This document shows positions 1,998 through 20,085 of a stretch of 64,000 nt of DNA, in pieces. The position numbers and the translations under genes are program-made. Source of the DNA: Escherichia phage mio; sequence record MN850631.1; one strand, written 5' to 3'. The notes beneath the pieces were generated by a model. It did no database searches. It saw only the letters and a list, made by a program, of their open reading frames with translations, and had not been told where the DNA came from. The stretch's first letter is position 1, and every line of letters starts with the position of its first letter.

Positions 1998-2006
1998 CTG
2001 CGTCGA

Positions 2007-3746: not shown

Positions 3747-3835
3747 TTTTGAATCTCCAGTTTAGGACTTTACTTAGTGGGGAAGGTCATTCCCTCCCCG
3801 TTGATTGACAATTTACAGACTTTTATCAGGCTTGT
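3747..3835 (-). promoter_or_regulatory. conserved intercistronic element, hairpin type A
   Basis: Core CATTTTTGAATCTCCAGTTTAGGACTTTACTTAGTGG plus GGGGAAGG..TCCCTCCCC then GTTGATTGACAATTTAC. Confidence 0.45.
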
Positions 3836-4069: not shown

Positions 4070-4132
4070 GATTTAAGCCCTCTAAATGGCCCTGTATGGG
4101 CCTTAAGTTGGAAATTAGTGTCTTTGTACTGA

Positions 4133-4696
4133 TTAACCTAAAAGGTCTTTTAAATTGCGTTCTGTGATGTTTGCCGTGATTTTATCCAGCAGGTCACAAA
4201 ACACGGAACTATCACCGCTATTCTGTACAATTTTCGCCATACTTAACAAATCATCGTCAACATAGCCTAAATTGCGGTTAGTTGCATCTGGTACAAAGAA
4301 AGGCGCATACATCGCACTAAATTTCGTTGAGTGGATACTAACAATCCAATTTTTATCAAAGTATCCGGTAAAGCTGGCAATTTCGCTCATGTTGTCACAA
4401 GAATAATCGTCCTCAAGTTCTTCCTCTGGGATATCCATTTCGATAACAATCACTTCCTGCGTTTCCATTTGGAAAGCTGCTGTGATAAGCCCCGACTCTA
4501 AGGCGCTTTGAATGCAGCGTTCACGGATATAAGAATCTTCCTCATCTTCCAGACATTCCGTTTTGATAACCTTGTTCATTGGGTAAACGTAGAAACAATC
4601 GTCCATGTAGGAACAGTTCCAGATACCTTCAGGTTTATCGCCACCATTCAGCAGGTTTACAAAGTTTTTGAGTGTAGTTCCGTGATAGCATTTCAT
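4133..4696 (-). CDS. hypothetical early protein (187 aa), acidic
   Basis: ATG 4694-4696 with AGGAGA RBS in conserved element. Confidence 0.6.
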   Translation of the reverse strand: MKCYHGTTLKNFVNLLNGGDKPEGIWNCSYMDDCFYVYPMNKVIKTECLEDEEDSYIRERCIQSALESGLITAAFQMETQEVIVIEMDIPEEELEDDYSCDNMSEIASFTGYFDKNWIVSIHSTKFSAMYAPFFVPDATNRNLGYVDDDLLSMAKIVQNSGDSSVFCDLLDKITANITERNLKDLLG

Positions 4697-4788
4697 TTTT
4701 GAATCTCCTAGTTTAAGGACTTGATTTAGTGGTAAAGCTCTTTATCTGGGGCTTACTTTATCGAACTATAAGCCCCTTGTAAAGTACT
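4697..4788 (-). promoter_or_regulatory. conserved intercistronic element, hairpin type B
   Basis: Core CATTTTTGAATCTCCTAGTTTAAGGACTTGATTTAGTGG plus AAAGCTCTTTATCT-GGGGCTTA-N13-TAAGCCCC-TTGTAAAGTACTTT. Confidence 0.5.
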
Positions 4789-4992
4789 TTATCGGTTATT
4801 TTTGATAACTTTTAAAACTGCGCGGTATCCTAAGCAATAAGAATCACCGAAGAGCGACCGACCCATGAATGAATCCTCTTTGATATCCTTTGCAGTGACA
4901 GTCTTTTCTACGCCGTGAAAAAGAACTATATCGCCAACTTTGATATCTTTGATATGAGTAGTTTCAATGTTTAAACCGTTGATAATAGCCAT
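4789..4992 (-). CDS. hypothetical early protein (67 aa)
   Basis: ATG 4990-4992 with RBS in conserved element. Confidence 0.5.
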   Translation of the reverse strand: MAIINGLNIETTHIKDIKVGDIVLFHGVEKTVTAKDIKEDSFMGRSLFGDSYCLGYRAVLKVIKNNR

Positions 4993-5092
4993 TCTTGAAT
5001 CTCCTAGTTTAAGGACTTTACTTAGTGGGGAGGTTATCCCTCCCGTTGATTAGTAATTTACTTGTTTTAAAAATCAATGTCAACAAAATTTT
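4993..5092 (-). promoter_or_regulatory. conserved intercistronic element, hairpin type A, with sigma70-like hexamers upstream on minus strand
   Basis: Core plus GGGGAGG-TTAT-CCCTCCC; minus strand reads TTGACA-17nt-TAAATT just upstream of hairpin. Confidence 0.5.
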
Positions 5093-5497
5093 TTAGAGTT
5101 CTGCATAAATTGCATCGCAGATACCACGAAAATCATGATTTGTCAAATTACGTTGTAACCAAGTGGCGAAAAAGTCAGCGATTGCAAAGTTAGCGTCATA
5201 CTCGACAGATAGCCACACTTTAACAGCAAACCGAAACATTTTCAAATCAAGCTCTTTATTCATTATCTTAGATTTGCCTAACATGTCGGTCATTTCATAT
5301 TGTGCACCGTCTAGCGTGATACCTGCTGCAACGTCAGCCAATGAGTTTTTTACGTTTTCAACGTCTAAGATAACGCTTTGAATCTTCCCAATAATGTTGT
5401 GCAATGTTTCGTCCGGTGCTGATGACGTAATAACATTAATCCGGTTAACGGTCAAACGTGCTTTTAAGATTGATAACTCGCGATTATTAATAGCCAT
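5093..5497 (-). CDS. hypothetical early protein (134 aa)
   Basis: ATG 5495-5497; RBS in variant core CATTTTTTAGTTCTCCAATTTAGG. Confidence 0.6.
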   Translation of the reverse strand: MAINNRELSILKARLTVNRINVITSSAPDETLHNIIGKIQSVILDVENVKNSLADVAAGITLDGAQYEMTDMLGKSKIMNKELDLKMFRFAVKVWLSVEYDANFAIADFFATWLQRNLTNHDFRGICDAIYAEL

Positions 5498-5583
5498 TTT
5501 TTAGTTCTCCAATTTAGGATTTAGTAGTAAAGCTCTTTATCTGGGGCTTACTTTATCGAACTATAAGCCCCTTGTAAAGTACT
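5498..5583 (-). promoter_or_regulatory. conserved intercistronic element, hairpin type B
   Basis: Variant core plus GGGGCTTA-CTTTATCGAACTA-TAAGCCCC then TTGTAAAGTACTTT. Confidence 0.5.
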
Positions 5584-5856
5584 TTATACTAAATGCAGCT
5601 TTTTGCCTTTTACCATGATGTAACTTGTTGCGCTATTGCTATGCACATCTTGATAAATTCTGCGCAAACGGCCTTCGTAGTATACTTTCCAACTGGTTGG
5701 AATCTTTTTCCCGTATCCTGTAGCAGTTTTTTGGAGTCCTGCAAGTTGCCAATCTAAGATATGTTGTTCGGCTTGTAAATCCTCGAAGTGCATTACACCG
5801 TTCACATAGTGGCGCAAAGTTACATTTAGAGTACGACCGTTGTTAGTAGTATACAT
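5584..5856 (-). CDS. hypothetical early protein (90 aa)
   Basis: ATG 5854-5856 with RBS in conserved element. Confidence 0.55.
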   Translation of the reverse strand: MYTTNNGRTLNVTLRHYVNGVMHFEDLQAEQHILDWQLAGLQKTATGYGKKIPTSWKVYYEGRLRRIYQDVHSNSATSYIMVKGKKLHLV

Positions 5857-5943
5857 TTTCTAATCTCCTAGTTTAAGGACTTTACTTAGTGGGGAGGTCA
5901 TCCCTCCCGTTGATTAGTAATTTACTTGTTTTAAAAACCAAAA
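5857..5943 (-). promoter_or_regulatory. conserved intercistronic element, hairpin type A
   Basis: Core CATTTTCTAATCTCCTAGTTTAAGGACTTTACTTAGTGG plus GGGGAGG-TCAT-CCCTCCC; minus strand TTGATT-17nt-TAAATT upstream. Confidence 0.5.
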
Positions 5944-6276
5944 TCAAGAGAAATTTTTTCGTTTGCTCAATTCTTGAACAATTACAGCGTAGTAGTCTTT
6001 TAAGTCACTGATATTTAAAGCATTTATCAGTGAATTATAATCATCGACTAACTGAAAATCATCTTTGAAGATATCACTTATCTGATAGGTTTTCGCTTTG
6101 AATCTGAAGCTCATTTCTAGCCGCTTTATTTGCTCATCACTTAAACGCTCCAGAAAGCTCATTACAAGGCTACTATTGACCTGTTGCGTGATTGCCTTAC
6201 TTGCCAGATTGTAGGCGCTGTAAGCCTTATAAAGTGCTATAATGGCGATGATTGCAGTGATGCCCATCATTAGCAT
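5944..6276 (-). CDS. hypothetical early protein (110 aa) with N-terminal hydrophobic helix
   Basis: ATG 6274-6276; N-terminus MLMMGITAIIAIIALYKAY; overlaps next ORF by 7 nt. Confidence 0.55.
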   Translation of the reverse strand: MLMMGITAIIAIIALYKAYSAYNLASKAITQQVNSSLVMSFLERLSDEQIKRLEMSFRFKAKTYQISDIFKDDFQLVDDYNSLINALNISDLKDYYAVIVQELSKRKNFS

Positions 6277-6566
6277 GGTGTTACCTCTCTGCGTGATACT
6301 TTACCATTTACAGTTATCTCATAAGCTTCTAATAAATCACTTTCAGATTTAACAGGGCTTTTAAAAGTATCATCATAAACATTAATTTGCAATACAGGCT
6401 TTTTATACTCCCTGCAACTATTCCATAAGCAAATTACTACGCGACGGCCTTTTATTTTGCCGTGTAACCATTCCATAACATCATGACTATTTCTTGATGT
6501 CTCGATAAAATCGATTTTATTGAGTAATTTGCTTAGATTTTCACGCACTTGATTTGATAATTTCAT
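6270..6566 (-). CDS. hypothetical early protein (98 aa)
   Basis: ATG 6564-6566 with RBS in conserved element. Confidence 0.55.
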   Translation of the reverse strand: MKLSNQVRENLSKLLNKIDFIETSRNSHDVMEWLHGKIKGRRVVICLWNSCREYKKPVLQINVYDDTFKSPVKSESDLLEAYEITVNGKVSRREVTPC

Positions 6567-6658
6567 TTTTGAATCTCCTAGTTTAAGGGCTTTATTTGAT
6601 AAATCTCTTTATCTGGGGCTATCCTACCAGCTTGTTAGCCCCGTGTAAAGAAATCTAT
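6567..6658 (-). promoter_or_regulatory. conserved intercistronic element, hairpin type B variant
   Basis: Core CATTTTTGAATCTCCTAGTTTAAGGGCTTTATTTG plus GGGGCTA-N14-TAGCCCC then GTGTAAAGAAATC. Confidence 0.45.
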
Positions 6659-7171
6659 TTAGTTCTTAAAGATATTCATCACTGAATCTTTCAACGATTC
6701 CAAACGTTCTAATACTTCAGATTCTGCGTCTGCGTTGTTCACCTCTTCTTTTAGTCTATCCTCTAAATCATCGCCGTCACGATAGCACCAATCGAAAGCG
6801 TATCCAAGATAAAAACTTTCTAAAACCGTGCTACCGTTTGCATCCACAACTTTCGCGGCAAGGCTATACTCTGAAGCCTCTAAATCTCTTTCTAGTTCTT
6901 TCTGTAAGCTTGTGTAAGCCTCTTTCGATGGATTCTCACGGCCTTGTTTTGCATAGTCACTTGAAAGCTGCTTAAGGCTGTAATGCAAAGGGATTGCATA
7001 TTTAAACTCATTACGCTGACAGTTGGTGTTTTTAATAGTTACACCGCCTTGATGGTCATCTGTAAACTCCCAATTATCCATATTATGGCTTGCTTCGTAG
7101 CAATTAACAGCCTCATAAATGATGGAAAATTTTTCTTTTACAACTTCAAAGGTAGCGTCTACAGTTTTCAT
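6659..7171 (-). CDS. hypothetical early protein (170 aa), acidic C-terminal half
   Basis: ATG 7169-7171 with RBS in conserved element. Confidence 0.6.
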   Translation of the reverse strand: MKTVDATFEVVKEKFSIIYEAVNCYEASHNMDNWEFTDDHQGGVTIKNTNCQRNEFKYAIPLHYSLKQLSSDYAKQGRENPSKEAYTSLQKELERDLEASEYSLAAKVVDANGSTVLESFYLGYAFDWCYRDGDDLEDRLKEEVNNADAESEVLERLESLKDSVMNIFKN

Positions 7172-7266
7172 TTTTGAATCTCCTAGTTTAAGGACTTGAT
7201 TTAGTGGTAAAGCTCTTTATCTGGGGCTTAAGATATCAACTTTTAAGCCCCTTGTAAAGTACTTTA
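7172..7266 (-). promoter_or_regulatory. conserved intercistronic element, hairpin type B
   Basis: Core plus GGGGCTTAA-N13-TTAAGCCCC then TTGTAAAGTACTTT. Confidence 0.5.
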
Positions 7267-7524
7267 TCAGATTAAATTGCCAGTTAATGATAAGTGCATT
7301 TTATAGCCTTTTTTGGTAAAAACGTTCACTTTACCGAGTGATTTTACACCTTTAAAAAGGTTGTTTGAACTGCGTTTTAAGGTTAGTTGCTTATCAGCTT
7401 TCACGCCCCACCTTACAGCAGTTTGTTTTCCGTTGTCAACCACTTTTCCGCATAACTTTTTAGCCATAACGCGAGCGTCATCACGAGTCTTTGCAGTAAT
7501 TACAACGTTTTTGATAATAGCCAT
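7267..7524 (-). CDS. hypothetical early protein (85 aa), lysine-rich; start moved from TTG (7539) to ATG (7524)
   Basis: ATG 7522-7524 with GGAGA RBS inside conserved core; track start codon is TTG. Confidence 0.5.
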   Translation of the reverse strand: MAIIKNVVITAKTRDDARVMAKKLCGKVVDNGKQTAVRWGVKADKQLTLKRSSNNLFKGVKSLGKVNVFTKKGYKMHLSLTGNLI

Positions 7525-7613
7525 TTTTAAGTTCTCCAATTTAGGATTTAGTGGTAAAGCTCTTTATCTGGGGCTTACTTTATCGAACTATAAGCCCCTT
7601 GTAAAGTACTTTA
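7525..7613 (-). promoter_or_regulatory. conserved intercistronic element, hairpin type B
   Basis: Variant core CATTTTTAAGTTCTCCAATTTAGG plus GGGGCTTA-CTTTATCGAACTA-TAAGCCCC. Confidence 0.5.
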
Positions 7614-7994
7614 TTAGTTAATTTTGAAAATTGTCACATAACCATCGCTCCCGATGATTTGTGATACCCCAGCTTTTTCTACTTGATAGCCCATATTTTC
7701 AAGATGGTAAACAGCATCATCGTAACCATATGCGCCACCCTGATAACGTCGCTTATCACATTTTATCAGGTTTTTACCGCGTCCAGCAAGTGCATTCAGT
7801 ACGGCTTTTTCACTTGATAGTGTACCATCTATCATGGTTGCCGTGTAATGGTTGATTTTATTCCCATTAATATCATACTTAAAATTGAATGCGTGAACAA
7901 TAATCAATTTACCGTTAAATTTTTCATCAAGTGACTTCTCCAGTGCGTTGCGGAAGTTGTCTTTATTGATGAATTTCGGTGCACGATAAGCCAT
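7614..7994 (-). CDS. hypothetical early protein (126 aa)
   Basis: ATG 7992-7994 with RBS in conserved element. Confidence 0.6.
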   Translation of the reverse strand: MAYRAPKFINKDNFRNALEKSLDEKFNGKLIIVHAFNFKYDINGNKINHYTATMIDGTLSSEKAVLNALAGRGKNLIKCDKRRYQGGAYGYDDAVYHLENMGYQVEKAGVSQIIGSDGYVTIFKIN

Positions 7995-8082
7995 TTTAGA
8001 ATCTCCTAGTTTAAGGTAAGTTAGTAAAGCTCTTTATCTGGGGCTTAAGATATCAGCTTTTAAGCCCCTTGTAAAGTACTTT
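7995..8082 (-). promoter_or_regulatory. conserved intercistronic element, hairpin type B
   Basis: Core CATTTTAGAATCTCCTAGTTTAAGG plus GGGGCTTAA-N13-TTAAGCCCC then TTGTAAAGTACTTT. Confidence 0.5.
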
Positions 8083-8289
8083 TTATATATCGTAATAGTA
8101 AACCGCTGTCTGTTTTATATGTCGCTTTGTATTCTTTGTTAGGTAGCAATTAGAGTTAATTGCCGTTTCTACATAGTTGCAATAATCAGCTTCTGATATT
8201 CTACGCCATGCGCCGCACACTTGCATATAAAAACGTTTTGCCTTTGTGTTAACGTTGGTTGTAACCATCAATTCGCGACTGTACATCAT
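8083..8289 (-). CDS. hypothetical early protein (68 aa); first gene of the leftward array
   Basis: ATG 8287-8289; upstream partial core CATTTTGGATTCTCCAGTTTAGGAAG. Confidence 0.5.
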   Translation of the reverse strand: MMYSRELMVTTNVNTKAKRFYMQVCGAWRRISEADYCNYVETAINSNCYLTKNTKRHIKQTAVYYYDI

Positions 8290-8539
8290 TTTGGATTCTC
8301 CAGTTTAGGAAGTGGGCTTGCTTGCCCGTCTGATGCAAATATTAGATAACCATACTCAAAGAGTCAATAGGAATTTTAAAAATATTTTTGCAAGAATTGT
8401 AATGAAACGGGTGCGCGCGACTACCACAAAACAGAACTACAATCAAGAATTATTTTTCAATCCGCTACAAATTTTTCTGTTGACTTTTATTTCCAGATGT
8501 GGTAGCCTTGTGAGAAATGGCGACATTCCCACCTGCACC

Positions 8540-8725
8540 CACCTACCTGCACAATTCTAAAATGATTTTTCTTGCCCGACCTGAGTGGGTTCTGCACGTT
8601 TTGAAAATGAAAAAGCTCTTTGGAGATTACCTGCACAGTTTGAAAATGAATTTTCTCTTTGGAGTTCAAAATTCTCTCTACAGATTTCTCTACAGAACTC
8701 TACCTGCACAATTCTAAAATGAAAA
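8540..8725. repeat. direct repeats in ORF-free gap (CTACCTGCACAATTCTAAAATGA twice; two tandem ~38 bp CTGCACNTTTTGAAAATGA...CTCTTTGGAG units)
   Basis: Identical 23-mer at 8543-8565 and 8700-8722; related units at about 8590-8627 and 8628-8665. Confidence 0.55.
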
Positions 8726-8795
8726 AGCCCTCCTTACCTGAAAAATTTACCAGATAAGAAAGGCTTAGTCTATTGTGAATATTCTACAGAGTTTC

Positions 8796-9581
8796 TTAGT
8801 TCTTTGCGTCTAAGAAGGTAACTTCCGGTGAAGAGAAAATTCCCTCAACATCCTCATCAGTTCTTGCATAGATATATGTATCTGCATCACTGCCAAATGT
8901 TACTGCAATTCTGTGATTGCTCTTCGACAGGTGGGTAACTAGAGCGTTACTTAGAGACATCTTTTCAACCGGAGGGTTACTTTGATGTACCTTACCTTTT
9001 CTTCGTCTGAAGAGGGTAACTGCATCGTCAGTGAACACTACTACACCTGCAAAGTATTCTGGTTCACAGTAGTTCTTCCAACCTGAGCGTAACTTGTGGT
9101 ACATCTCTCCTTCGTAGACATATAGATAGACATCTACACTCTTCATCACCTGATTAATGATAACGGTGACGGCTTGAGGGTCAAGTCCACCGATACCTGC
9201 ACCAATCATAGGTAAACCAACTTTCTTCAACTGATTAACTTCACAGTATCTGTTAAGTTGCTTCAAAGATGACTCTAAAGCACTGTATCGGGCATCTTTA
9301 CCAGTCTTAAGCTGAGTGTAAAGATTGGCTATACGGCCTTGTTTTAAACGTGCTACAGAGAAATTGCCTAGCAAATTTTCACAGGGTTTGTGACCTATAC
9401 CACCTGCATACAGATAAACTTCTGTATCGGTCTCATATGCTTTTGGGTAAAGTTTAGAAATCTTATCAGCGATACCTGCACCCATTAAGTTCATACAGTT
9501 GCAACCGTGACCAATGATATCAAACTTACCTTTATCAAATGCGGAGAAGATATCCCCATTGATGATTTTTACAATACCCAT
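8796..9581 (-). CDS. macrodomain protein (TARG1/DarG-like ADP-ribose binding/hydrolase fold) with ~100 aa C-terminal extension
   Basis: N-terminal GDIFSAFDKGKFDIIGHGCNCMNLMGAGIA...GLPMIGAGIGGL matches the macrodomain pattern; ATG 9579-9581 overlaps upstream stop. Confidence 0.65.
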   Translation of the reverse strand: MGIVKIINGDIFSAFDKGKFDIIGHGCNCMNLMGAGIADKISKLYPKAYETDTEVYLYAGGIGHKPCENLLGNFSVARLKQGRIANLYTQLKTGKDARYSALESSLKQLNRYCEVNQLKKVGLPMIGAGIGGLDPQAVTVIINQVMKSVDVYLYVYEGEMYHKLRSGWKNYCEPEYFAGVVVFTDDAVTLFRRRKGKVHQSNPPVEKMSLSNALVTHLSKSNHRIAVTFGSDADTYIYARTDEDVEGIFSSPEVTFLDAKN

Positions 9582-9782
9582 CTAGCATCTCTCCCAAGAT
9601 TCTTTATCTTCTGAAGGTTTTACACGTTGTCCTTCGTGGTCTACCCAGATACATCCACAACCTTCACAGATTACTGGCATTGCATAGCCAGCTTTAAAGT
9701 CATCTTCAGTGATAAGACCTTTTAAGTCACCTGTATCACGTCCAAACATTTCGATAGCACAATCTTTGCAGAAGTCAGCCAT
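9582..9782 (-). CDS. small Cys-rich protein (66 aa), putative zinc ribbon; track start (GTG 9860) replaced by ATG 9782
   Basis: CKDC...CEGCGC motifs; ATG 9780-9782 overlaps upstream stop by 8 nt. Confidence 0.45.
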   Translation of the reverse strand: MADFCKDCAIEMFGRDTGDLKGLITEDDFKAGYAMPVICEGCGCIWVDHEGQRVKPSEDKESWERC

Positions 9783-10002
9783 TGATAATTGCCTCTTGAA
9801 TGATGATACCTTTACCACAACGACTTTTAAAGTCTTCCAATGGCTGGGAGATAAAGCCACGTAAGCAATAACTGAATGCTAATTTTTTCCTGTAGACTAT
9901 CACATCATTTGCTGTAAAAGGAATCACTTCATTCCTTCCAATAAATACTGCTGAACGTACAATCTTGCAGGTCTTTTTATCTCTGGCTAGTATTACTTTC
10001 AT
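9775..10002 (-). CDS. hypothetical protein (75 aa)
   Basis: ATG 10000-10002; part of tightly overlapping leftward operon. Confidence 0.45.
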   Translation of the reverse strand: MKVILARDKKTCKIVRSAVFIGRNEVIPFTANDVIVYRKKLAFSYCLRGFISQPLEDFKSRCGKGIIIQEAIING

Positions 10003-10303
10003 AGTTTACCTTCTCAGTTAGCTCATACAAGTCAACATGCTCAATACTATCAATGTTGATACCAATCTTTTTGAAGCGTTCTATCACTTCGTTGTCAGTC
10101 ATCCATATCAGACACCAATGATTATGGATGGATTCTTCAAGAAGGTCAACACAGTCTTTAAAAGTTTTTGTATCACTTCTTGTTCCGACTACTGCGATTG
10201 TCCCATACAACCACTTACCATTACCATAAGATACTTGTGCTACGCCAACTTCTTTATCTTTCTCGTAGTAAACGGCTACAAAATCTCTTCCGTTAATCTG
10301 CAT
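9977..10303 (-). CDS. hypothetical protein (108 aa); start moved to ATG 10303 (track start TTG 10342)
   Basis: ATG 10301-10303 preceded by AGAGGAA RBS; alternative ATG at 10333. Confidence 0.45.
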   Translation of the reverse strand: MQINGRDFVAVYYEKDKEVGVAQVSYGNGKWLYGTIAVVGTRSDTKTFKDCVDLLEESIHNHWCLIWMTDNEVIERFKKIGINIDSIEHVDLYELTEKVNYESNTSQR

Positions 10304-10607
10304 TTGTAAGTTCCTCTGTTGGTAATTCACCATTCTCAGCAAAGTATTGAAGGTACGGCAACAGTTCTTTTACCTGTTCTTGATTGAGCTTCATTCTTTG
10401 ATTACCTACAAAATCTTTGCCTACTAACGCTGGGATATCAAGTGTTTTCCAGCCACCATCTAGGTACTGAATAGAGACCTCTTTAGCACCTAACCAGATA
10501 CATGGTTCATATGATGAACTTTCTTGTAAAGTACAAATCTCTCCTTTAGCATCTTTAAATTCTGCATAAGAAAATCCACGATTTGTTGGCTGGAATTGCA
10601 TAATCAT
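10293..10607 (-). CDS. hypothetical protein (104 aa)
   Basis: ATG 10605-10607; overlaps neighbours. Confidence 0.5.
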   Translation of the reverse strand: MIMQFQPTNRGFSYAEFKDAKGEICTLQESSSYEPCIWLGAKEVSIQYLDGGWKTLDIPALVGKDFVGNQRMKLNQEQVKELLPYLQYFAENGELPTEELTNAD

Positions 10608-10873
10608 TTCCTCGTTTTAAGAACTGCTAAGATTTCTTTAGAGTCTGGTAAGAACCATGTGTAGTGATTCTCTTTGATTTCTGGATGAGTGTCAACCTTT
10701 ATTTTGCACTCTTTACCAACATGCTTCAGTTGTGCTGTGATGCCTTGCATAAAAATATGACACATCACGTTATCCATAATGGTCGGTGAGAAATCAATTC
10801 GCATATAAGTTTCTTTTGGTCGTGGTAGCAGTAAGTACCCTTCTACATAGAAAGTGTCTTCATTCTCTGTCAT
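10604..10873 (-). CDS. hypothetical protein (89 aa)
   Basis: ATG 10871-10873; ATGA-type overlap with upstream gene. Confidence 0.5.
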   Translation of the reverse strand: MTENEDTFYVEGYLLLPRPKETYMRIDFSPTIMDNVMCHIFMQGITAQLKHVGKECKIKVDTHPEIKENHYTWFLPDSKEILAVLKTRK

Positions 10874-11139
10874 TGCTGTTTGTTCCCTAATAAAAGCATA
10901 TCAATAAGGTTATTAGCTTTGATTGTGCACTGGTAAAAACCATCACGATAAAACTCAAGGGCTGCTGCCACATCACTACCAGTATTACCTTTGACAGTGA
11001 ATCTTGACTCTTCTTGAGTGTACTTGTCACCCTCACTCACTTGGGAGTTTTTGAATGTACTGTTCACTTTGTTCGTTGAACACCCTGACATAATTATCAG
11101 TAACACAAACATTATAAAACTCTGGCTTAGTTTTTTCAT
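10870..11139 (-). CDS. putative lipoprotein (89 aa), o-spanin-like; gene starts inside the upstream TM-protein gene in another frame
   Basis: Signal MKKLSQSFIMFVLLIIMSGC with lipobox-like MSGC; AGAGGT RBS 8 nt upstream of ATG 11137-11139. Confidence 0.45.
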   Translation of the reverse strand: MKKLSQSFIMFVLLIIMSGCSTNKVNSTFKNSQVSEGDKYTQEESRFTVKGNTGSDVAAALEFYRDGFYQCTIKANNLIDMLLLGNKQQ

Positions 11140-11380
11140 ATGTTAGTACCTCTTTTGTATGCTTATTCTTAGCAAGCACATCTTTCAAATCGTTTTTGTA
11201 ATTGGCGCTTAGTGTGGCTAAACCTTCCTGATAAGCATCTTTAGCAACACTTATTAGTTTCTCATTATTTAGCTCAGCTTCAGCAACTTGATAGTCTCGG
11301 TAAGAGTATCCTCCCCAGACACCCGCTCCAACTAAGAAAACAATTATGAAAGTAGCTTGACAGAACTCTTTAAATGTCAT
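11033..11380 (-). CDS. membrane protein with N-terminal TM helix and coiled-coil-like periplasmic part (115 aa), i-spanin-like
   Basis: N-terminus FIIVFLVGAGVWGGYSY hydrophobic; AGGAGA RBS 7 nt upstream of ATG 11378-11380; overlaps lipoprotein ORF by 107 nt. Confidence 0.5.
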   Translation of the reverse strand: MTFKEFCQATFIIVFLVGAGVWGGYSYRDYQVAEAELNNEKLISVAKDAYQEGLATLSANYKNDLKDVLAKNKHTKEVLTYEKTKPEFYNVCVTDNYVRVFNEQSEQYIQKLPSE

Positions 11381-11394
11381 TTAACAATCTCCTG

Positions 11395-11420
11395 AAATGA
11401 AAAAGGCTCCCGAAGGAGCC
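11395..11420 (-). terminator. putative intrinsic terminator
   Basis: GGCTCC-CGAA-GGAGCC hairpin with T-run on the minus strand. Confidence 0.45.
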
Positions 11421-11432
11421 TGTATCTTAACC

Positions 11433-11897
11433 TTAACCGAGGACTTTAGCAAGGACATTTGCAGCCATCGAAGAAGCTTTTGCAGCAGCAGCTACCCCAG
11501 CTTTGACGGTGCTATCCTTGATAGCAGATACCGTTGCAGCATCAGTAAAGAGATAAGTAGTTGTTTTAGAACCACTTGTAAAGGAAAGCATAAGAGCAGT
11601 TTCCAGATTGAAAGAGCGATACGGAGCACCTTCTTTAACAATACCTTCAGCACCTAATTCTGAAGCCATCCCCATATCATAGATAGTCATCAGGTTTTCT
11701 TTGTGTGCTGTCGTTGAGCCAGAACCTTTTACGTGTTTCTTAACATTCAAAAGAGCGCGATACTCTCGAATGTTACCATCTGCTTTTACGTTGACAGCAC
11801 GGAAGATTTTACCCTCAAAGTTGTTCTTGATAATGTTACGAACTACTTCAGATTTGTTTGCCGTAACGTCCAGTGCTACCGTAATGATATTGTTCAT
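11433..11897 (-). CDS. hypothetical protein (154 aa), Ala-rich C-terminus
   Basis: ATG 11895-11897; no recognisable motif. Confidence 0.55.
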   Translation of the reverse strand: MNNIITVALDVTANKSEVVRNIIKNNFEGKIFRAVNVKADGNIREYRALLNVKKHVKGSGSTTAHKENLMTIYDMGMASELGAEGIVKEGAPYRSFNLETALMLSFTSGSKTTTYLFTDAATVSAIKDSTVKAGVAAAAKASSMAANVLAKVLG

Positions 11898-11907
11898 AAG
11901 TTTTCTC

Positions 11908-12603
11908 TCAATGTTTAACTAACATGGTTTTGATGTGTGGAAGGATTCTGTTCACCTTCTGCACATTCTTCTCTGTATCTTCTATAAAACATACTATATT
12001 AAAGTAAGGCAGAATGCAAGACTGAATCATCCTCACTTTCAAACTTTCTGCACTTATAGAGTTAGTCCCAAAACCACGCATAAAAAGCATGTAGTCATGC
12101 TCTGTGTTATGCCTTAAAAACATCTCAGTAGGTATTCTCTGAGATTCACCTCTCGCTGTCAAGAGTCCAACAGCAGCATGATTAGCAATTGCATCAATGA
12201 TATTGAAAACATACGTTGGTTTTGCTCTTACAGAGTCAAGAAGATTAGTGTACTGTAAAAATGAACCATCAGTCAATTCCGTTGAACAATCTTCGTGATT
12301 AAAATTTGTAAGAACACCATCAATATCTGCTAAGATAAGGTTACCTTTCTCTACAAGGTCTTTATTGACTATGACTAAGCTATCACGACTTACACCTATA
12401 GTCTGTCCAGTCTCTTTATCTTCAACATTCACAATTGGCTCTGATGTGTGGAACTCTTCAAGTGAACATACAACTTCTCTCGCAGTGTCTTCAAAATCCC
12501 TGCACTGTTCTGGAGTCCATACACAGGAATCAAGACCTAACTCATGAGGATGTAAGTCATAAGCATGACACAGTACTTCATCAGACTTTCTTAATTTTTT
12601 CAT
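11908..12603 (-). CDS. HAD-superfamily phosphatase-like protein (231 aa) with N-terminal domain of unknown function
   Basis: LADIDGVLTNF (DxDG motif I) and GLLTARGE (motif II-like) in the C-terminal half. Confidence 0.45.
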   Translation of the reverse strand: MKKLRKSDEVLCHAYDLHPHELGLDSCVWTPEQCRDFEDTAREVVCSLEEFHTSEPIVNVEDKETGQTIGVSRDSLVIVNKDLVEKGNLILADIDGVLTNFNHEDCSTELTDGSFLQYTNLLDSVRAKPTYVFNIIDAIANHAAVGLLTARGESQRIPTEMFLRHNTEHDYMLFMRGFGTNSISAESLKVRMIQSCILPYFNIVCFIEDTEKNVQKVNRILPHIKTMLVKH

Positions 12604-13129
12604 GGTTTACCTTAGAAATGTTTGTTGCAAATTCACATTGAGCGATGACTTTCATGTTGTTATAGACATCTTGAGAATATTTCTTAGCTTTAGGGATTCT
12701 GTACGAATACCCAGCATTATATGATGCTAAAACTTTTTGTAAAGTCTTCTTTGACTTTGGCTGACCATGCACCTTTGTCCAAAACTCAAGTTCTTTGTGC
12801 GTTTCCTTTGCAGCATAGTCAAAGTCTTTTAAGAGTTTCTTTTTAGCCACATTAGGACTGATTTTGTTACGCTTTACAACAGTCTTCAAGTGATTCTGGA
12901 AAATACCATAATCATGTGTCTTTTTATTCTCTACCTTCAGACCTAACTCTGACTCTTGTAAGGCTATAGCAGCTAGAGTGATACCCCAACCTTTACCCAT
13001 GTTATTCTCACCATACTGGTAAGCTTTTAACATGTTTACTTTTTGGCTAATTGATAGCTCTGGGCAGTCAACTGCATAAGATAAGTGTGCTGTAAACATT
13101 AAGCACAAACCTAGAATCAATTTCTTCAT
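12581..13129 (-). CDS. secreted lytic transglycosylase (SLT domain) with N-terminal signal peptide
   Basis: Signal MKKLILGLCLMFTAHLSYA; SLT motifs ALQESELG, DYGIFQ, ASYNAGYSY. Confidence 0.7.
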   Translation of the reverse strand: MKKLILGLCLMFTAHLSYAVDCPELSISQKVNMLKAYQYGENNMGKGWGITLAAIALQESELGLKVENKKTHDYGIFQNHLKTVVKRNKISPNVAKKKLLKDFDYAAKETHKELEFWTKVHGQPKSKKTLQKVLASYNAGYSYRIPKAKKYSQDVYNNMKVIAQCEFATNISKVNHEKIKKV

Positions 13130-13184
13130 TGGTTCTCCTGTTTAGTTTATCGTGACAACAATTATACAGCACTCTGCACAAAAT

Positions 13185-13212
13185 ACAAATAAAAAAGGCC
13201 GCCGAAGCAGCC
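13185..13212 (-). terminator. putative intrinsic terminator downstream of rIIB
   Basis: GGCTGC-TTCG-GCGGCC hairpin (minus strand, one G-U pair) followed by TTTTTT. Confidence 0.4.
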
Positions 13213-13229
13213 TTTTAAGAAATTACTTA

Positions 13230-14339
13230 TTAGATTTCACGTTTACGTTGTGAGATAAGTTCTCCAGCAGTGCCAACGATGACATGCAAAGCTTCAGTCT
13301 TGCCATCCCATTCTTTCAGCACTTTACGTTGGTTATCAACGATTGCTGCAACTTCATAACGAGACGAACGCATCTTCATATCGTTGTAATCAGTTGGAAC
13401 AGATACAACATCTCGTGGATGGACACGAACCTTCAGGATTGTATCACCTGAGAAGCAACGAACATAATCCCAAGCACCAACATGAAGACCTTGAGAGCAA
13501 GTTACGTTACGGTTATTATCAACCATCCAACGTGGCATCTCTACAATGTTACCCAAATCATTAGGTACTCTGTAGGTGTGGGAGTCAACCAGCTTGCCTT
13601 CACGAGTAGACACTTTCTTCCAACCAATGATGTAGCCTTCTTCATCAATTTCAACATCAAGGTGAGATACGAATCCCCAAAGTTGTTCTACAGAATCTTT
13701 AGATGGGTTTTCCATCAGTTTTTCGAAGAACATCACAAGGCGTTCAAAACCCTTATCTCCAGTCTTCATCATGTGAAGAATACGGTCAACAAGAGTAGAA
13801 CGCATCTCAACAGCACCGTAGAATAACTTGTCACCTTTGATTGTGATAGCACCTTGAGTGAAGTTTTCGATAGACTTACGAATATTCATCAGTTCAAAGG
13901 CTTTCTTGAACTCACCTTTCACAACATGAACTACAATCTCTTGATAGTTCGGATGAGTAGATTCAACAATTTCAGACTCTGAACCGTAAGTCATAATTAC
14001 AGAGTCACCAGTAATCATGTACTCAATCTTGTCATCTTTCTGCATAGCTTCGTGCAGTTTATTTACTGGAGCTTTCTCTACAGATTCTTTAACAACCTTT
14101 TTAACTGGCTTGTCAGCTTTCTTTTTAAAGGTCTTAGCAACTTGCTTTAAAGTCTTTGTAGCTGGTGTAGAAGTTGCCTTTTTATTCCCTTTTAAGGTTG
14201 CTTCATGACGCTCTACAGCACGACCGACTGAACGGGTTGAGGTGTTAAATTTCTGTGCAATAGCTGTTTTAGTCAGCTTGCCCTCTTTAACCAGTTTGTA
14301 AATTTCTGCGTCAATCTGTGCTTTAGTTTTAGTAGTCAT
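13230..14339 (-). CDS. rIIB: rIIB-like protein
   Basis: 369 aa with N-terminal helix-turn-helix-like region, immediately downstream of the rIIA-like gene (conserved rIIA-rIIB order). Confidence 0.6.
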   Translation of the reverse strand: MTTKTKAQIDAEIYKLVKEGKLTKTAIAQKFNTSTRSVGRAVERHEATLKGNKKATSTPATKTLKQVAKTFKKKADKPVKKVVKESVEKAPVNKLHEAMQKDDKIEYMITGDSVIMTYGSESEIVESTHPNYQEIVVHVVKGEFKKAFELMNIRKSIENFTQGAITIKGDKLFYGAVEMRSTLVDRILHMMKTGDKGFERLVMFFEKLMENPSKDSVEQLWGFVSHLDVEIDEEGYIIGWKKVSTREGKLVDSHTYRVPNDLGNIVEMPRWMVDNNRNVTCSQGLHVGAWDYVRCFSGDTILKVRVHPRDVVSVPTDYNDMKMRSSRYEVAAIVDNQRKVLKEWDGKTEALHVIVGTAGELISQRKREI

Positions 14340-14418
14340 CTTATTACTCTCTCTTGTTAGTTAATAAATCATTTTGTGAGACTATTCTAAGGGGCTTCAA
14401 AGCCCCTTGTCAAGCACT

Positions 14419-16785
14419 TTAATCGTAAACTGTTGTACCTTCTGGAACACATTTCACATTAAAGCCTAAAAACTTACTCACTTCAATAGGTGACACTTTA
14501 TTCCAATCTAAATGGGAAAGCAAGAAGTTTTCTTGTTTTCTTTTTGAAAGGTAGTTTGTCACCTTAATGACCATGCGGTCACCAGCTTTCTTAATTTTCT
14601 TGTACAGCTTTGTATCATTGTCAAGGCATTCTTTCAAAGTTTGCAATCTACTAATGGTGTAAGTGTATGCAAACGGTGCAGCAACATACTGGATTTTACC
14701 GAATATTGCCTCTACAGCCTCTTCGTTACCTTCTAGGAAGATAGTTTTGCTAGTATCTCGTGAATAGCAATAGCCACGAGAAATCTTCTTGTTATTGAAT
14801 GTAAAGTTTCTGGCAATAATCCAACTGCTTGTAAGGTCAAGAACACCATTCATGTAGATGCGTGTCATATACCTGTTATGATTAATCCAGTGAACATCAG
14901 TTAAGCTGTCGTTCAAGAGCTTCTCATCTACTTCAATCCAGTCTTCTGGTATCTTTTTCCAATTTGCTTTTCGGAAAACATAGACTGTCTTCCCTATAAC
15001 ATTAGCAACTGACTTAGCTACATCTTCTGGAGATGAGCAAAAGCATTCACCATCAACTGTGTCACCTACTGCCTTAATGTAAAGCTGAGGTTCTTCAATT
15101 GTGTCTAAGTCTTCTGATACCTCTGTGTATGAGGCTACACCTTCTGCTGGAACAGCTTTCCAGAGTTTTACAACACCCCTTACAGCTTCTTTACGCTGAT
15201 AGTGGTGTTCCTTATCAGACATCTTCACAATCTTTAACAAGCTTTTATCAAGTTTATGCAGATTGATTAAATCATCTAACTCTTTCTCAGTCGAGAATAC
15301 AAACACAATACCATTGTATCTGTGAAACAGACTTGATTCGTTGGCATAGTCTCGACATGCACCACGCAGAATCTGATTGCGGCCTACAGTCTTCTCAGTG
15401 CCATTTTTATTACGACGGTCATTAATCACGAACAAAAACTGTTCAATTTGGCTTTTACGCATTGCACCAAAGATATTGAACATACTCGCCTCTTGAGTGT
15501 AGGAAAGTGCTGTTGCACGAATCTTACTCTCTAAAGAGTTGAACTTAACATAAGCAACTGGATTGTATAGGTAGTCCACTTTAGGAATGTTGTTTCCTTT
15601 ACTGTCAACCTTAATATTACCTTTGCCGTCACGTTCATAGATGACTGAGCCATCTTCTGCGTAGATAATTCCACGACGAATGTTTAGCAATTCTTCTTCC
15701 AGAGAGTCAAGCTTAACACCTCCCCACTCTAGCTTTGGACACACAGCATTAAACATTTCTCGTGAGTTCAAACGTAACTCTGCATAAGCCTGTGCAGCAT
15801 CCATGAGTGTAGGTTGGTTATTAACTCCCTTAATAACGTCCCTTGTAATTGCTTCAGTTATCTTTTTAGTAGCCTCAATGATAACATTTTTTGTCGTATC
15901 ATTCATCTGCAATGCTTCACGAGAAGCTGCAATAGCAACTGAACCAATAGGCATGTAAATGTTTACAAGGTCTACGCTCCTACGGAAAAACTCTGGCAAG
16001 ACTTTGAAGAAATCATCACCAAGTAATGCTTCCATGTTAACAGGGTATGCAATGTTACCCATCACCACATTAAACTCTGTCCTGTTACCACTAGAACGCC
16101 AACTTTGCTTATGAATCATAGCATCATAAACACCCTCTTCACGGGCAATGACGTTCATATCTGCTAACACATCATCATATACAATATTGCTTTCTGGTTT
16201 TACAGCAAAGTATGAATATACGTGACCAGCCTCTTCAAAGAACTTTGAGATACGGTGGTCAGCAACTGCCACACGTACAGCTAAGCCATTAGGTTCATTC
16301 GTTTGGTTAGTAGTAAGCTTAGTTACTTGAGGGATACCATTCTCAAGGTAAACAGAGTACTTATTAACAACACCATCAACATAGCTAGATACTGTGAATG
16401 ACTGAGCAATTGCAAATGGGGATTTTGAGCCGATACCCATTGCACCAATGTAGTCATTAGAGTCATTCTTCGTAGAAGCCCCGTAGTTCAGATACAAACT
16501 CATTACCTTGTCGTGGGTTAAACCAGTTCCAAAATCACGGACTTCAAAGTAAGGCTCAAATCGAGTAGGTAAATGCACATGGAATGGGATGTTCTCTTTT
16601 CCAGCTTCTTTCTGAGCATCCACTGCATTACATGACAGTTCACGAATCACTGCTCGCTCTTTAAATGTGTATACACCAGAACTCAAAAGGCTGAACATTT
16701 CAGGTGTCATTGTAATCTGTGCTTGAGATGTCTCCAAAGAAGTTGAACTCTTAATCACTTCTGCGTGGTCGTTTACCATGCGCAT
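14419..16785 (-). CDS. rIIA: rIIA-like protein (GHKL ATPase-like N-terminus)
   Basis: 788 aa; N-terminal RAVIRELSCNAVDAQKEAG matches the ATPase-like box of rIIA family; AGAGGA RBS before ATG 16783-16785. Confidence 0.75.
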   Translation of the reverse strand: MRMVNDHAEVIKSSTSLETSQAQITMTPEMFSLLSSGVYTFKERAVIRELSCNAVDAQKEAGKENIPFHVHLPTRFEPYFEVRDFGTGLTHDKVMSLYLNYGASTKNDSNDYIGAMGIGSKSPFAIAQSFTVSSYVDGVVNKYSVYLENGIPQVTKLTTNQTNEPNGLAVRVAVADHRISKFFEEAGHVYSYFAVKPESNIVYDDVLADMNVIAREEGVYDAMIHKQSWRSSGNRTEFNVVMGNIAYPVNMEALLGDDFFKVLPEFFRRSVDLVNIYMPIGSVAIAASREALQMNDTTKNVIIEATKKITEAITRDVIKGVNNQPTLMDAAQAYAELRLNSREMFNAVCPKLEWGGVKLDSLEEELLNIRRGIIYAEDGSVIYERDGKGNIKVDSKGNNIPKVDYLYNPVAYVKFNSLESKIRATALSYTQEASMFNIFGAMRKSQIEQFLFVINDRRNKNGTEKTVGRNQILRGACRDYANESSLFHRYNGIVFVFSTEKELDDLINLHKLDKSLLKIVKMSDKEHHYQRKEAVRGVVKLWKAVPAEGVASYTEVSEDLDTIEEPQLYIKAVGDTVDGECFCSSPEDVAKSVANVIGKTVYVFRKANWKKIPEDWIEVDEKLLNDSLTDVHWINHNRYMTRIYMNGVLDLTSSWIIARNFTFNNKKISRGYCYSRDTSKTIFLEGNEEAVEAIFGKIQYVAAPFAYTYTISRLQTLKECLDNDTKLYKKIKKAGDRMVIKVTNYLSKRKQENFLLSHLDWNKVSPIEVSKFLGFNVKCVPEGTTVYD

Positions 16786-16814
16786 AATACTTTCCTCTTA
16801 GTTTACTGTTAAAA

Positions 16815-16991
16815 TTACTTATTAAACATTTTACCAGAACCGCCACACATAGGGCAACAACCTGCTCTTGTATAGCCTTCTCCATTACAGTAGTCACATT
16901 TTTTGTGCTCTGCAAAGTACTTGCAAAGAAGGTAAACAAATACTGCTATGCTACCAAGCGACAGTAAAATTTCTATCCAATATGCTTGCAT
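16815..16991 (-). CDS. small membrane-anchored zinc-finger protein (58 aa), not in ORF track
   Basis: Hand translation MQAYWIEILLSLGSIAVFVYLLCKYFAEHKKCDYCNGEGYTRAGCCPMCGGSGKMFNK; TM helix plus CxxC..CCPMCGG; replaces out-of-frame track ORF 16751..16939. Confidence 0.3.
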   Translation of the reverse strand: MQAYWIEILLSLGSIAVFVYLLCKYFAEHKKCDYCNGEGYTRAGCCPMCGGSGKMFNK

Positions 16992-17308
16992 GACTCACCC
17001 CTCATATTTTTGTAAAGGATAAAACTTCTGTCATGGACGATACTTGTAGACACTGCAAAGTTACTTTCAAGCATCTGTTTGTTTGGATTGTAGAAGCTTT
17101 CTTTAAACTCGTCAAGTGCAAATTGGTGATGTTGTGGAAGACCTTTTACACAGACTTTTATTGTGATTGCTGCTGCAATCTTGCCAGTCAGTTCTTCTTT
17201 AGCTGCTACTAAAATTTTGTTAAGGAACTTTTTACCATCTTCAGGTTTCTTAATGTTCTCCCAACGTTCTTCTAGGACAACGTTAATGTTCATTTCTTTG
17301 ATTTTCAT
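16973..17308 (-). CDS. hypothetical protein (111 aa)
   Basis: ATG 17306-17308 with GGAGAAGA RBS. Confidence 0.5.
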   Translation of the reverse strand: MKIKEMNINVVLEERWENIKKPEDGKKFLNKILVAAKEELTGKIAAAITIKVCVKGLPQHHQFALDEFKESFYNPNKQMLESNFAVSTSIVHDRSFILYKNMRGESCKHIG

Positions 17309-17320
17309 AATCTTCTCCAG

Positions 17321-17346
17321 AAATTAAAAAGGCTCCCGTAGGAGCC
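17321..17346 (-). terminator. putative intrinsic terminator downstream of NAMPT-like gene
   Basis: GGCTCC-CGTA-GGAGCC hairpin with T-run on the minus strand. Confidence 0.45.
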
Positions 17347-17361
17347 TCTTATCATATACTT

Positions 17362-19143: not shown

Positions 19144-19188
19144 CTTTTAATCTCTCTCAAAATGGGGCTTTCAAGCCCCTATAAACTT

Positions 19189-20070: not shown

Positions 20071-20085
20071 AGTTTTCTCTCTCTC

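What the first reader, a model, noticed from the sequence alone, without database searches (positions are those of the whole stretch)
10870..11380. Overlapped TM-protein / lipoprotein gene pair with spanin-like architecture
ORF 11033..11380 encodes a 115 aa protein with one N-terminal TM helix and a coiled-coil-like periplasmic part. ORF 10870..11139 starts inside it in another frame with its own AGAGGT RBS and encodes an 89 aa lipoprotein (signal plus MSGC lipobox). That overlapped arrangement is what inner/outer-membrane spanin pairs look like, yet the pair is not next to an obvious holin and is two genes from the secreted lytic transglycosylase. Alternatively it is an envelope-targeting superinfection-exclusion or host-takeover pair.
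Basis: partly seen in the sequence, partly recalled or inferred. Interest (0 to 1): 0.5.

Follow-up and report, generated by a model that had tools for sequence, protein, structure and literature searches.

The report
Felix O1-type phage spanin gene pair
The two overlapping genes are the already catalogued inner- and outer-membrane spanin pair of a Felix O1-like phage, the proteins thought to break the host outer membrane in the last step of lysis. The finding is correct but ordinary.

Summary
On the minus strand, 11033..11380 encodes a 115-aa protein with one N-terminal transmembrane helix. 10870..11139 encodes an 89-aa lipoprotein (lipobox MSGC, Ser at +2) that starts inside the first gene in the +1 frame, with a 107-nt overlap, and each gene has its own ribosome-binding site.

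The window is a Felixounavirus genome, 95-96.5% identical to phages skuden and Felix O1. Many GenBank records annotate this pair as i-spanin/o-spanin. It is also listed in the SpaninDataBase of Kongari et al. 2018: Felix01, 'overlapped', 107-nt overlap, 'JH2' family.

My checks agree:
- The lipobox Cys and one periplasmic Cys in each protein are invariant across seven other phages from three unrelated phage groups.
- Substitutions concentrate at third codon positions in each gene's own frame and are depleted in the overlap.
- In Salmonella phage Sasha the homologous pair closes a holin-endolysin-spanin cassette.

The missing holin and endolysin are explained. Felix O1-like phages scatter their lysis genes as T4 does, and both lie outside this window.

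Spanin function for this family remains a bioinformatic inference; I found no experimental test. Verdict: already known, low interest.

The parts
11033..11380 (-). i-spanin gene: 115 aa, a type II inner-membrane protein with an N-terminal TM helix and an ~88-aa periplasmic domain
   Evidence: The ORF is. It matches phrog_1152 'Rz-like spanin' at E 4.8e-41. It is 96% identical to Felix O1 p014, which the SpaninDataBase lists as an overlapped i-spanin. GenBank records annotate it as i-spanin or Rz-like spanin.
10870..11139 (-). o-spanin gene: 89-aa prolipoprotein giving a 70-aa mature outer-membrane lipoprotein
   Evidence: The ORF is. It is 93% identical to Felix O1 ORF7 (5571..5841), listed as an overlapped o-spanin. 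It matches phrog_4180 (unnamed family) at E 1.6e-49 and phrog_456 'Rz-like spanin' weakly at 6e-4. Variable sites fall mostly at third codon positions in this frame, 14/7/41.
11033..11139 (-). 107-nt dual-coding overlap: the i-spanin C-terminus in frame 0 and the o-spanin signal peptide and lipobox in frame +1
   Evidence: Only 19 of 107 sites vary among 7 genomes, against 75 of 241 and 62 of 163 in the single-coding parts. The published entry for Felix O1 and wV8 gives the same 107-nt overlap.
11309..11365 (-). Codons for the i-spanin transmembrane helix (residues 6-24, FCQATFIIVFLVGAGVWGG)
   Evidence: This is the only 19-residue window with mean Kyte-Doolittle hydropathy above 1.6. The coordinates were checked.
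11080..11091 (-). Lipobox M-S-G-C; Cys20 (11080..11082) is the predicted lipidation site, followed by Ser at +2 (no inner-membrane retention signal)
   Evidence: Sequence. Cys20 is invariant in 8 of 8 aligned homologues.
11105..11107 (-). i-spanin Cys92, the only periplasmic cysteine, inside the conserved motif EK-T..F.N.C...Y...N
   Evidence: Invariant in 8 of 8 homologues.
10927..10929 (-). o-spanin Cys71, the only cysteine of the mature protein other than the lipidated one
   Evidence: Invariant in 8 of 8 homologues.
11389..11393 (-). Ribosome-binding site AGGAG of the i-spanin gene, 8 nt before the ATG
   Evidence: The same site is recorded for Felix O1 in Table S1 of PMC6139136.
11148..11154 (-). 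Ribosome-binding site AAGAGGT of the o-spanin gene, inside the i-spanin coding sequence and 8 nt before the ATG
   Evidence: RBS features are annotated at the equivalent place in Moogle and Mushroom.
11396..11421 (-). Intrinsic-terminator-like hairpin (AGGCTCC-TTCG-GGAGCCT plus a T run) directly upstream of the i-spanin RBS
   Evidence: The spanins are therefore probably transcribed by read-through from the upstream rIIA-rIIB-PNK transcription unit. A terminator is annotated at the same position before the homologous i-spanin of phage Paul.

Best explanation
This is the two-component spanin of a Felix O1-like myophage (genus Felixounavirus), in the overlapped gene architecture.

**Shown**
- Two conserved, translatable genes are under purifying selection in their own frames.
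- The first gene encodes an N-in/C-out inner-membrane protein with a mostly helical periplasmic domain.
- The second encodes a lipoprotein with a signal-peptidase-II signal and no Asp at +2.
- Each protein has exactly one conserved periplasmic cysteine in its C-terminal third.
- Both are homologous to catalogued spanin families.

**Inferred from the lambda Rz/Rz1 and T4 PseT.3/PseT.2 model (PMC6139136)**
- The i-spanin stays anchored in the inner membrane.
- The o-spanin is lipidated at Cys20 and carried to the inner leaflet of the outer membrane by the Lol system.
- The two C-termini bind across the periplasm.
- Host Dsb enzymes link the single cysteines into homodimers.
- The complexes accumulate harmlessly inside the peptidoglycan mesh from mid-infection.
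- The holin and the soluble lysozyme are encoded elsewhere in the genome. Once they have destroyed the peptidoglycan, the complexes are free to move sideways and change shape, and they fuse the inner and outer membranes to release progeny.
For: - **Identity of the genome:** the window is 95-96.5% identical over 4 kb to skuden, Felix O1 and about 220 other Felixounavirus records.
- **Published cataloguing:** Table 3/4 and Tables S1-S5 of PMC6139136 list Felix01, FO1a, wV8, Moogle and Mushroom in the overlapped 'JH2' i- and o-spanin families. The Felix O1 coordinates are 5330..5678 and 5571..5841, with a 107-nt overlap.
- **Family match:** the i-spanin hits phrog_1152 'Rz-like spanin' at E 4.8e-41.
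- **Annotation in other records:** the pair is annotated i-spanin/o-spanin in CRP22, SME50, Moogle, Mushroom, SUSP1 and others.
- **Conserved residues:** the overlapped arrangement, the lipobox Cys and one periplasmic Cys per protein are invariant in Felixounavirus, Mooglevirus, Suspvirus, Hafnia phage SarahDanielle, Kolesnikvirus (Erwinia), Kuravirus (podovirus Paul) and Sashavirus (siphovirus).
- **Lysis-cassette context:** in Sasha the homologous pair follows holin, endolysin and a membrane protein in a classic lysis cassette. Pairwise BLASTP gives E 5e-9 for the i-spanins and 1e-11 for the o-spanins.
- **Selection:** the codon-position pattern shows selection on both frames.
- **Transcription:** RT-PCR in Felix O1 found the ORF6 (i-spanin) transcript maximal at 25 min, in the same class as the lysin ORF35 (PMC3185647; ORF numbering).
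- **Scattered lysis genes:** this is the reported norm for this phage group.
Against: - No member of this spanin family has been tested experimentally in anything I could find. The assignment rests on topology, architecture and context.
- The o-spanin has no proline and appears partly structured, unlike lambda Rz1. Published Jpred figures are 20% helix and 16% strand.
- The i-spanin has no predicted coiled coil.
- There is no detectable sequence similarity to T4 PseT.3/PseT.2 beyond the signal peptide.
- The genes sit in an early/middle-looking unit behind a terminator, next to rIIA/rIIB, rather than with late genes. T4 spanins are likewise not located near its holin and endolysin.
- PHROGs leaves the o-spanin family (phrog_4180) unnamed.
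Confidence: 0.9

Rival explanations
1. The pair is an envelope-targeting superinfection-exclusion or host-takeover module, comparable to the T5 Llp lipoprotein or T4 Imm/Sp. It would be made from early or middle transcripts to block entry of competing phages, not to lyse the cell.
For: - The genes lie in the rIIA-rIIB-PNK transcription unit rather than among the structural or late genes.
- The holin and endolysin are 14-22 kb away.
- No experimental spanin test was found for this family.
Against: - Both proteins are homologous to the last two genes of a holin-endolysin-spanin cassette in phage Sasha.
- The TM-protein-plus-lipoprotein pair is co-inherited in overlapped form in three unrelated phage morphotypes.
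- T4 spanins, which are experimentally validated, are likewise not located near its holin and endolysin (PMC6139136).
- The conserved single cysteines near the C-termini fit the spanin disulfide rule.
Confidence: 0.04
2. Only the 115-aa membrane protein is real. The 89-aa out-of-frame ORF is a chance open frame that happens to resemble a lipoprotein signal.
For: - Several GenBank records do not call it, or call a truncated version. CRP22 has a 65-aa version, Rouille has none, and Felix O1 RefSeq labels it 'hypothetical'.
- Two papers report only one of the two spanins.
Against: - The ORF with its lipobox Cys and Cys71 is preserved down to 27-33% identity in 8 of 8 genomes examined, including those where it is unannotated.
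- In its unique part, 41 of 62 variable sites are third codon positions of its own frame.
- It has its own strong RBS.
- Lipoprotein-like signals are rare in the window, 4 of 1285.
- Under-annotation of embedded and overlapped o-spanins is a known annotation bias (PMC6139136).
Confidence: 0.01
3. The pair is a periplasm-spanning complex with another role tied to its rII neighbours, for example sensing or signalling envelope state for lysis timing, rather than membrane fusion.
For: - The pair is close to rIIA/rIIB (14419..16785 and 13230..14339) and to a secreted SLT-like protein.
- The o-spanin looks folded and has no proline, unlike Rz1.
Against: - There is no positive evidence for this role.
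- In Kuravirus and Sashavirus the homologous pairs occur without rII genes.
- The T4 o-spanin is also structured and is a validated spanin.
Confidence: 0.03

Closest known systems
Felix O1 p014/ORF7 spanin pair; 'JH2' overlapped i-spanin and o-spanin families of the SpaninDataBase (Kongari et al. 2018, PMC6139136)
   Same: These are direct orthologues, 96% (i) and 93% (o) identical. They share the lengths 115/89 aa, the 107-nt overlap, the RBS, the lipobox position and the cysteine positions.
   Different: Only a few point substitutions. For example, the lipobox region reads IIMSGC here and ITMSGC in Felix O1.
Lambda Rz/Rz1 (prototype two-component spanin)
   Same: - Both consist of a type II inner-membrane protein plus an outer-membrane lipoprotein encoded in the +1 frame of the same DNA.
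- Both have periplasmic cysteines available for homodimer disulfides.
- The presumed mechanism, membrane fusion after peptidoglycan removal, is the same.
   Different: - Rz1 is fully embedded in Rz; this pair is overlapped.
- Rz1 is proline-rich and unstructured. This o-spanin has no proline and has predicted helix and strand.
- Rz has two coiled-coil helices, whereas none is predicted here.
- Lambda's genes sit in a lysis cassette, and these do not.
- I did not test sequence similarity directly; the PHROG families differ.
T4 PseT.3/PseT.2 spanins
   Same: [quoted passage not shown]
- In both they lie near the polynucleotide kinase gene.
- Both o-spanins are structured.
   Different: - T4 has the separated architecture.
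- The T4 i-spanin has no periplasmic Cys and its o-spanin has two, whereas here there is one in each.
- There is no detectable sequence similarity.
Spanin pairs of Sashavirus (phage Sasha gp55/gp56) and Kuravirus (phiEco32, Paul)
   Same: - These are distant homologues of both proteins with the same overlapped layout.
- The motifs EK-T..F.N.C...Y...N (i) and G....Y.D.Y..C...N.L (o) are conserved.
   Different: - Identity is only 25-33%.
- Sasha's pair lies in a canonical lysis cassette.
- At the 40% identity threshold, Kongari et al. put the phiEco32-type o-spanins outside the JH2 o-spanin family.

Membership tests
Two-component phage spanin (i-spanin + o-spanin) | The i-spanin is an integral inner-membrane protein with a single N-terminal TM helix and a periplasmic C-terminal domain | tested here: met
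   There is one hydrophobic 19-mer, residues 6-24, and the remaining ~88 residues are hydrophilic. Topology is inferred from sequence only.
Two-component phage spanin (i-spanin + o-spanin) | The o-spanin is a lipoprotein with a signal-peptidase-II signal and lipobox Cys, and no inner-membrane retention residue (Asp) at +2 | tested here: met
   MKK + hydrophobic core + MSGC; the +2 residue is Ser. The Cys is invariant in 8 of 8 homologues. No dedicated predictor such as LipoP was available; LipoP calls are recorded for the Paul and Sasha homologues in their GenBank notes.
Two-component phage spanin (i-spanin + o-spanin) | The genes are adjacent in embedded, overlapped or separated architecture, with the o-spanin downstream of or within the i-spanin gene in another frame | tested here: met
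   Overlapped, 107 nt, +1 frame. This is identical to the published Felix O1 and wV8 entries.
Two-component phage spanin (i-spanin + o-spanin) | At least one periplasmic cysteine is available for intermolecular disulfide bonds, located near the C-terminal interaction site | tested here: met
   i-spanin Cys92 of 115 and o-spanin Cys71 of 89, both invariant. The rule comes from PMC6139136. Disulfide formation itself was not tested.
Two-component phage spanin (i-spanin + o-spanin) | The i- and o-spanin C-termini interact physically to form a periplasm-spanning complex | not testable with these tools
   Only single-chain, single-sequence AlphaFold models could be run, and they were low confidence (pLDDT 51.5 and 54.7).
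Two-component phage spanin (i-spanin + o-spanin) | The pair is required for outer-membrane disruption, or complements lambda Rz-am/Rz1-am | not testable with these tools
   This needs an experiment. I found no published test for this family in the library searches.
SpaninDataBase 'JH2' overlapped family (Felix O1-like) | At least 40% identity over at least 40% of the length to family members (the threshold used in PMC6139136) | tested here: met
   96%/93% identity to the Felix O1 proteins and 77%/81% to Moogle, over the full length.
T4 PseT.3/PseT.2 spanin family | [quoted passage not shown] | tested here: not met
   BLASTP gives E 17 for the i-spanins, and only the signal peptide aligns for the o-spanins. 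The cysteine pattern is 1+1, not 0+2.

The most novel reading that the evidence does not exclude
Besides, or instead of, acting at lysis, the pair might act earlier at the envelope. It is transcribed with the rII/PNK middle-class genes by read-through of a terminator, and its o-spanin is proline-free and apparently folded. One possibility is exclusion of superinfecting phage; that would make this widespread 'spanin' family bifunctional or misassigned.
Probability: 0.04. Interest if true: 0.5.

Novelty: already known. Interest (0 to 1): 0.07.

Why it matters
It matters little as a discovery, because the pair is already in the spanin catalogue and in many GenBank annotations. It is useful as a confirmation that sequence reading alone recovered a real overlapped spanin pair.

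It also shows how uneven the annotation is. The o-spanin is 'hypothetical', truncated or missing in many records, and its PHROG family is unnamed. As far as I could find, the family remains experimentally untested. A simple lambda Rz/Rz1 complementation would turn a widely copied annotation into a fact for phages used in Salmonella and E. coli biocontrol.

Tried and rejected
- **Pfam scan of both proteins:** it gave only sub-threshold chance hits (SH3b_T, NAGLU_N) and was uninformative.
- **Comparison with T4 PseT.3/PseT.2**, prompted by the shared PNK neighbourhood: no homology. I dropped the idea that this is a diverged T4-type spanin.
- **Search of the window for the holin and endolysin**, using the phage Mushroom proteins: only chance tblastn hits (E 0.39 or higher). 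Mapping shows both genes lie outside the window.
- **Single-sequence AlphaFold2 of both proteins:** mean pLDDT was 51.5 and 54.7, too low to use for fold searches, so none were run.
- **Crude heptad-register count on the i-spanin periplasmic helix region:** no register stood out, which agrees with the published Pepcoil result of no coiled coil.
- **Large protein-database searches not run:** I left out search for homologous proteins and the search of protein representatives because identity and classification were already settled by the phage-record and literature evidence.
- **Promoter scan of 10400..13400:** as many sigma-70-like sites as in shuffled sequence (8 against 8.0), so no promoter is claimed for the pair.

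Full report
**1. The observation**

Reading the minus strand of 10700..11600 and listing ORFs confirms both genes at exactly the stated coordinates.
- 11033..11380 encodes a 115-aa protein, MTFKEFCQATFIIVFLVGAGVWGGYSY... Its only strongly hydrophobic 19-residue window is residues 6-24.
- 10870..11139 encodes an 89-aa protein, MKKLSQSFIMFVLLIIMSGC|STNK... It has a basic n-region, a hydrophobic core, the lipobox MSGC and Ser at +2.
- The second gene starts inside the first in the +1 frame, with a 107-nt overlap.
- Each gene has a Shine-Dalgarno sequence 8 nt before its ATG: AGGAG at 11389..11393 and AAGAGGT at 11148..11154.
- The o-spanin stop overlaps the start of the next gene (ATGA).

**2. 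Is it more than chance?**

Three lines of evidence say yes.
- Lipoprotein-like signals are rare here. Only 4 of 1285 start-codon/ORF combinations of at least 40 aa in the window have one, and two of those are weak TTG starts.
- I compared seven genomes over the 511-nt locus: the window, CRP22, Felix O1, SME50, Mushroom, Moogle and SUSP1. The table shows variable sites by codon position.

| Part of the locus | Length (nt) | Variable sites at positions 1/2/3 |
|---|---|---|
| i-spanin only, own frame | 241 | 17/12/46 |
| o-spanin only, own frame | 163 | 14/7/41 |
| Dual-coding overlap, i-spanin frame | 107 | 9/5/5 (19 in total, no third-position bias) |

  This is the pattern expected if both frames encode proteins under selection.
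- Homologues down to 25-33% identity keep the overlapped layout, the lipobox Cys, a second Cys in the o-spanin (Cys71) and one periplasmic Cys in the i-spanin (Cys92). Short C-terminal motifs are conserved around these cysteines.

**3. What the window is**

- A 4-kb stretch around the finding is 95-96.5% identical to Escherichia phage skuden, Salmonella phage Felix O1 and more than 200 other Felixounavirus records.
- The neighbourhood is that of Felix O1. In order of transcription it runs: rIIA (14419..16785), rIIB (13230..14339), a secreted SLT-like protein (12581..13129), a polynucleotide kinase (11908..12603), a 154-aa protein of unknown function, the two spanin genes, several small unknowns, and a macro-domain protein (8796..9581).

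**4. What is already known**

- Many GenBank records annotate the two genes as i-spanin and o-spanin. Examples are CRP22, SME50, Moogle, Mushroom, SUSP1, skuden and garuso.
- Kongari et al. 2018 (PMC6139136) list Felix01, FO1a, wV8, Moogle, Mushroom and others in the overlapped 'JH2' i-spanin family (15 members) and o-spanin family (11 members).
- Their supplementary tables give the Felix O1 coordinates as 5330..5678 and 5571..5841, architecture 'ovl', overlap 107 nt, and the same RBS.
- The same tables give Jpred values of 66% helix and 10% strand for the 88-residue periplasmic part of the i-spanin, and 20% helix and 16% strand for the 70-residue mature o-spanin. Pepcoil predicts no coiled coil in either.
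The domain is helical, but it is not a predicted coiled coil, and my heptad count found no register.

**5. The 'no holin nearby' problem**

- Scattered lysis genes are the known condition of this phage group. Whichard et al. 2010 noted that Felix O1 has no holin-lysin cassette (PMC3185647).
- The Moogle announcement states that the lysis genes of Felix O1-like phages 'are scattered around the genome' (PMC4319497).
- In the Mushroom record the holin is at 61949..62506, the endolysin at 70117..70581 and the spanins at 84161..84671.
- Mapping shows that the window corresponds to Mushroom 74469..87709 followed by 1..53161. The holin and endolysin therefore lie outside it, and tblastn with those proteins finds only chance hits.
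- The experimentally validated T4 spanins are likewise not located near T4's holin and endolysin. They also lie close to the polynucleotide kinase gene.

**6. Evidence bearing on function**

- The strongest contextual evidence comes from distant homologues. In Salmonella siphophage Sasha the homologous pair follows holin, endolysin and a small membrane protein in a classical lysis cassette. Pairwise BLASTP gives E 5e-9 for the i-spanins and 1e-11 for the o-spanins.
- In the podophage Paul (Kuravirus, phiEco32-like) a homologous overlapped pair is annotated. It also lies directly behind a terminator.
- The pair is therefore inherited as a unit across myo-, sipho- and podoviruses.
- The i-spanin matches phrog_1152 'Rz-like spanin' at E 4.8e-41. 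The o-spanin matches an unnamed family (phrog_4180) strongly and a spanin family (phrog_456) only weakly. This explains the patchy annotation of the o-spanin in public records and in two papers that report only one of the two genes.
- In Felix O1, RT-PCR found the ORF6 (i-spanin) transcript maximal at 25 min, in the same class as the lysin ORF35 (ORF numbering).

**7. Mechanism**

What is shown:
- There are two genes under selection.
- The first product has inner-membrane anchor features and the second has outer-membrane lipoprotein features.
- Each has one conserved periplasmic cysteine near its C-terminus.
- Both are homologous to catalogued spanins.

What is inferred by analogy with lambda Rz/Rz1 and T4 PseT.3/PseT.2 (PMC6139136):
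- The o-spanin is lipidated at Cys20 and sorted by the Lol system to the outer membrane.
- The C-termini bind across the periplasm, and each single cysteine forms a homotypic disulfide.
- Complexes accumulate from mid-infection, held in the peptidoglycan mesh.
- They fuse the inner and outer membranes once the holin and lysozyme have removed the peptidoglycan.

A terminator-like hairpin at 11396..11421 sits directly before the i-spanin RBS. No promoter stands out above background. Expression by read-through from the upstream unit is therefore likely but unproven.

**8. Comparison and membership**

- The pair meets every sequence-testable criterion for a two-component spanin, and it meets the identity threshold of the JH2 family.
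- It is not a member of the T4 spanin family: there is no similarity and the cysteine pattern differs.
- It differs from lambda Rz/Rz1 in three ways. It is overlapped rather than embedded, its o-spanin has no proline and is partly structured, and it has no predicted coiled coils.
- The two defining functional features could not be tested here: physical interaction of the two proteins and the requirement for outer-membrane disruption. I found no publication testing them for this family.

**9. Dead ends**

- Pfam was uninformative.
- Single-sequence AlphaFold models were of low confidence, so no fold searches were run.

**10. Verdict**

The feature is an already described and catalogued spanin pair of a Felix O1-like phage. 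Novelty is 'already known' and interest is low. The only open point is that the whole family lacks an experimental test.

Noticed in passing
window 41798..42034 (+): This is a second small predicted lipoprotein of 78 aa (MWKSVIVLGVIFLSGC|NPSY...), with no adjacent TM partner, in the DNA-replication/ligase region. It matches phrog_902, of unknown function. It is a better candidate than the spanin pair for a superinfection-exclusion or receptor-masking lipoprotein.
   Followed up: partly
window 2584..8084 (intergenic segments at 2584-2664, 3169-3285, 3744-3824, 4693-4792, 4978-5094, 5488-5587, 5842-5958, 7168-7267, 7515-7614, 7985-8084): Three families of 80-117-nt direct repeats lie between small minus-strand genes. 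Each contains a GGGGCTTA...TAAGCCCC or similar hairpin and flanking AT-rich boxes. They look like reiterated terminator/promoter cassettes of the early region.
   Followed up: partly
window 12581..13129 (-): The 'secreted lytic transglycosylase' has a clear signal peptide, but its Pfam SLT hit is below threshold (19.2 bits against a cut-off of 21.3). Public records name it inconsistently: putative lysin, RegB-like endoribonuclease, hypothetical, lytic transglycosylase domain protein. The Felix O1 record links it to the T4 vs-regB intergenic 20.7-kDa ORF. It is not the phage's annotated endolysin.
   Followed up: partly
window 11396..11421 (-) and L008 2409..2430: An intrinsic terminator sits immediately upstream of the i-spanin RBS in this phage and also in the unrelated podophage Paul. 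This may be a conserved way of keeping spanin expression low.
   Followed up: no
L006 2501..2770 (Erwinia phage Rouille), L005 ~2480..2776 (Hafnia phage SarahDanielle), L001 4371..4640 (CRP22): The o-spanin gene is unannotated (Rouille) or annotated with a truncated start that removes the signal peptide (SarahDanielle, CRP22). In SarahDanielle the i-spanin is mislabelled o-spanin.
   Followed up: yes
window 8796..9581 (-) and L008 2939..3379: A macro-domain (Appr-1-p processing) protein lies a few genes downstream of the spanin pair here and directly downstream of it in Kuravirus Paul. This may be a remnant of a shared gene block.
   Followed up: no
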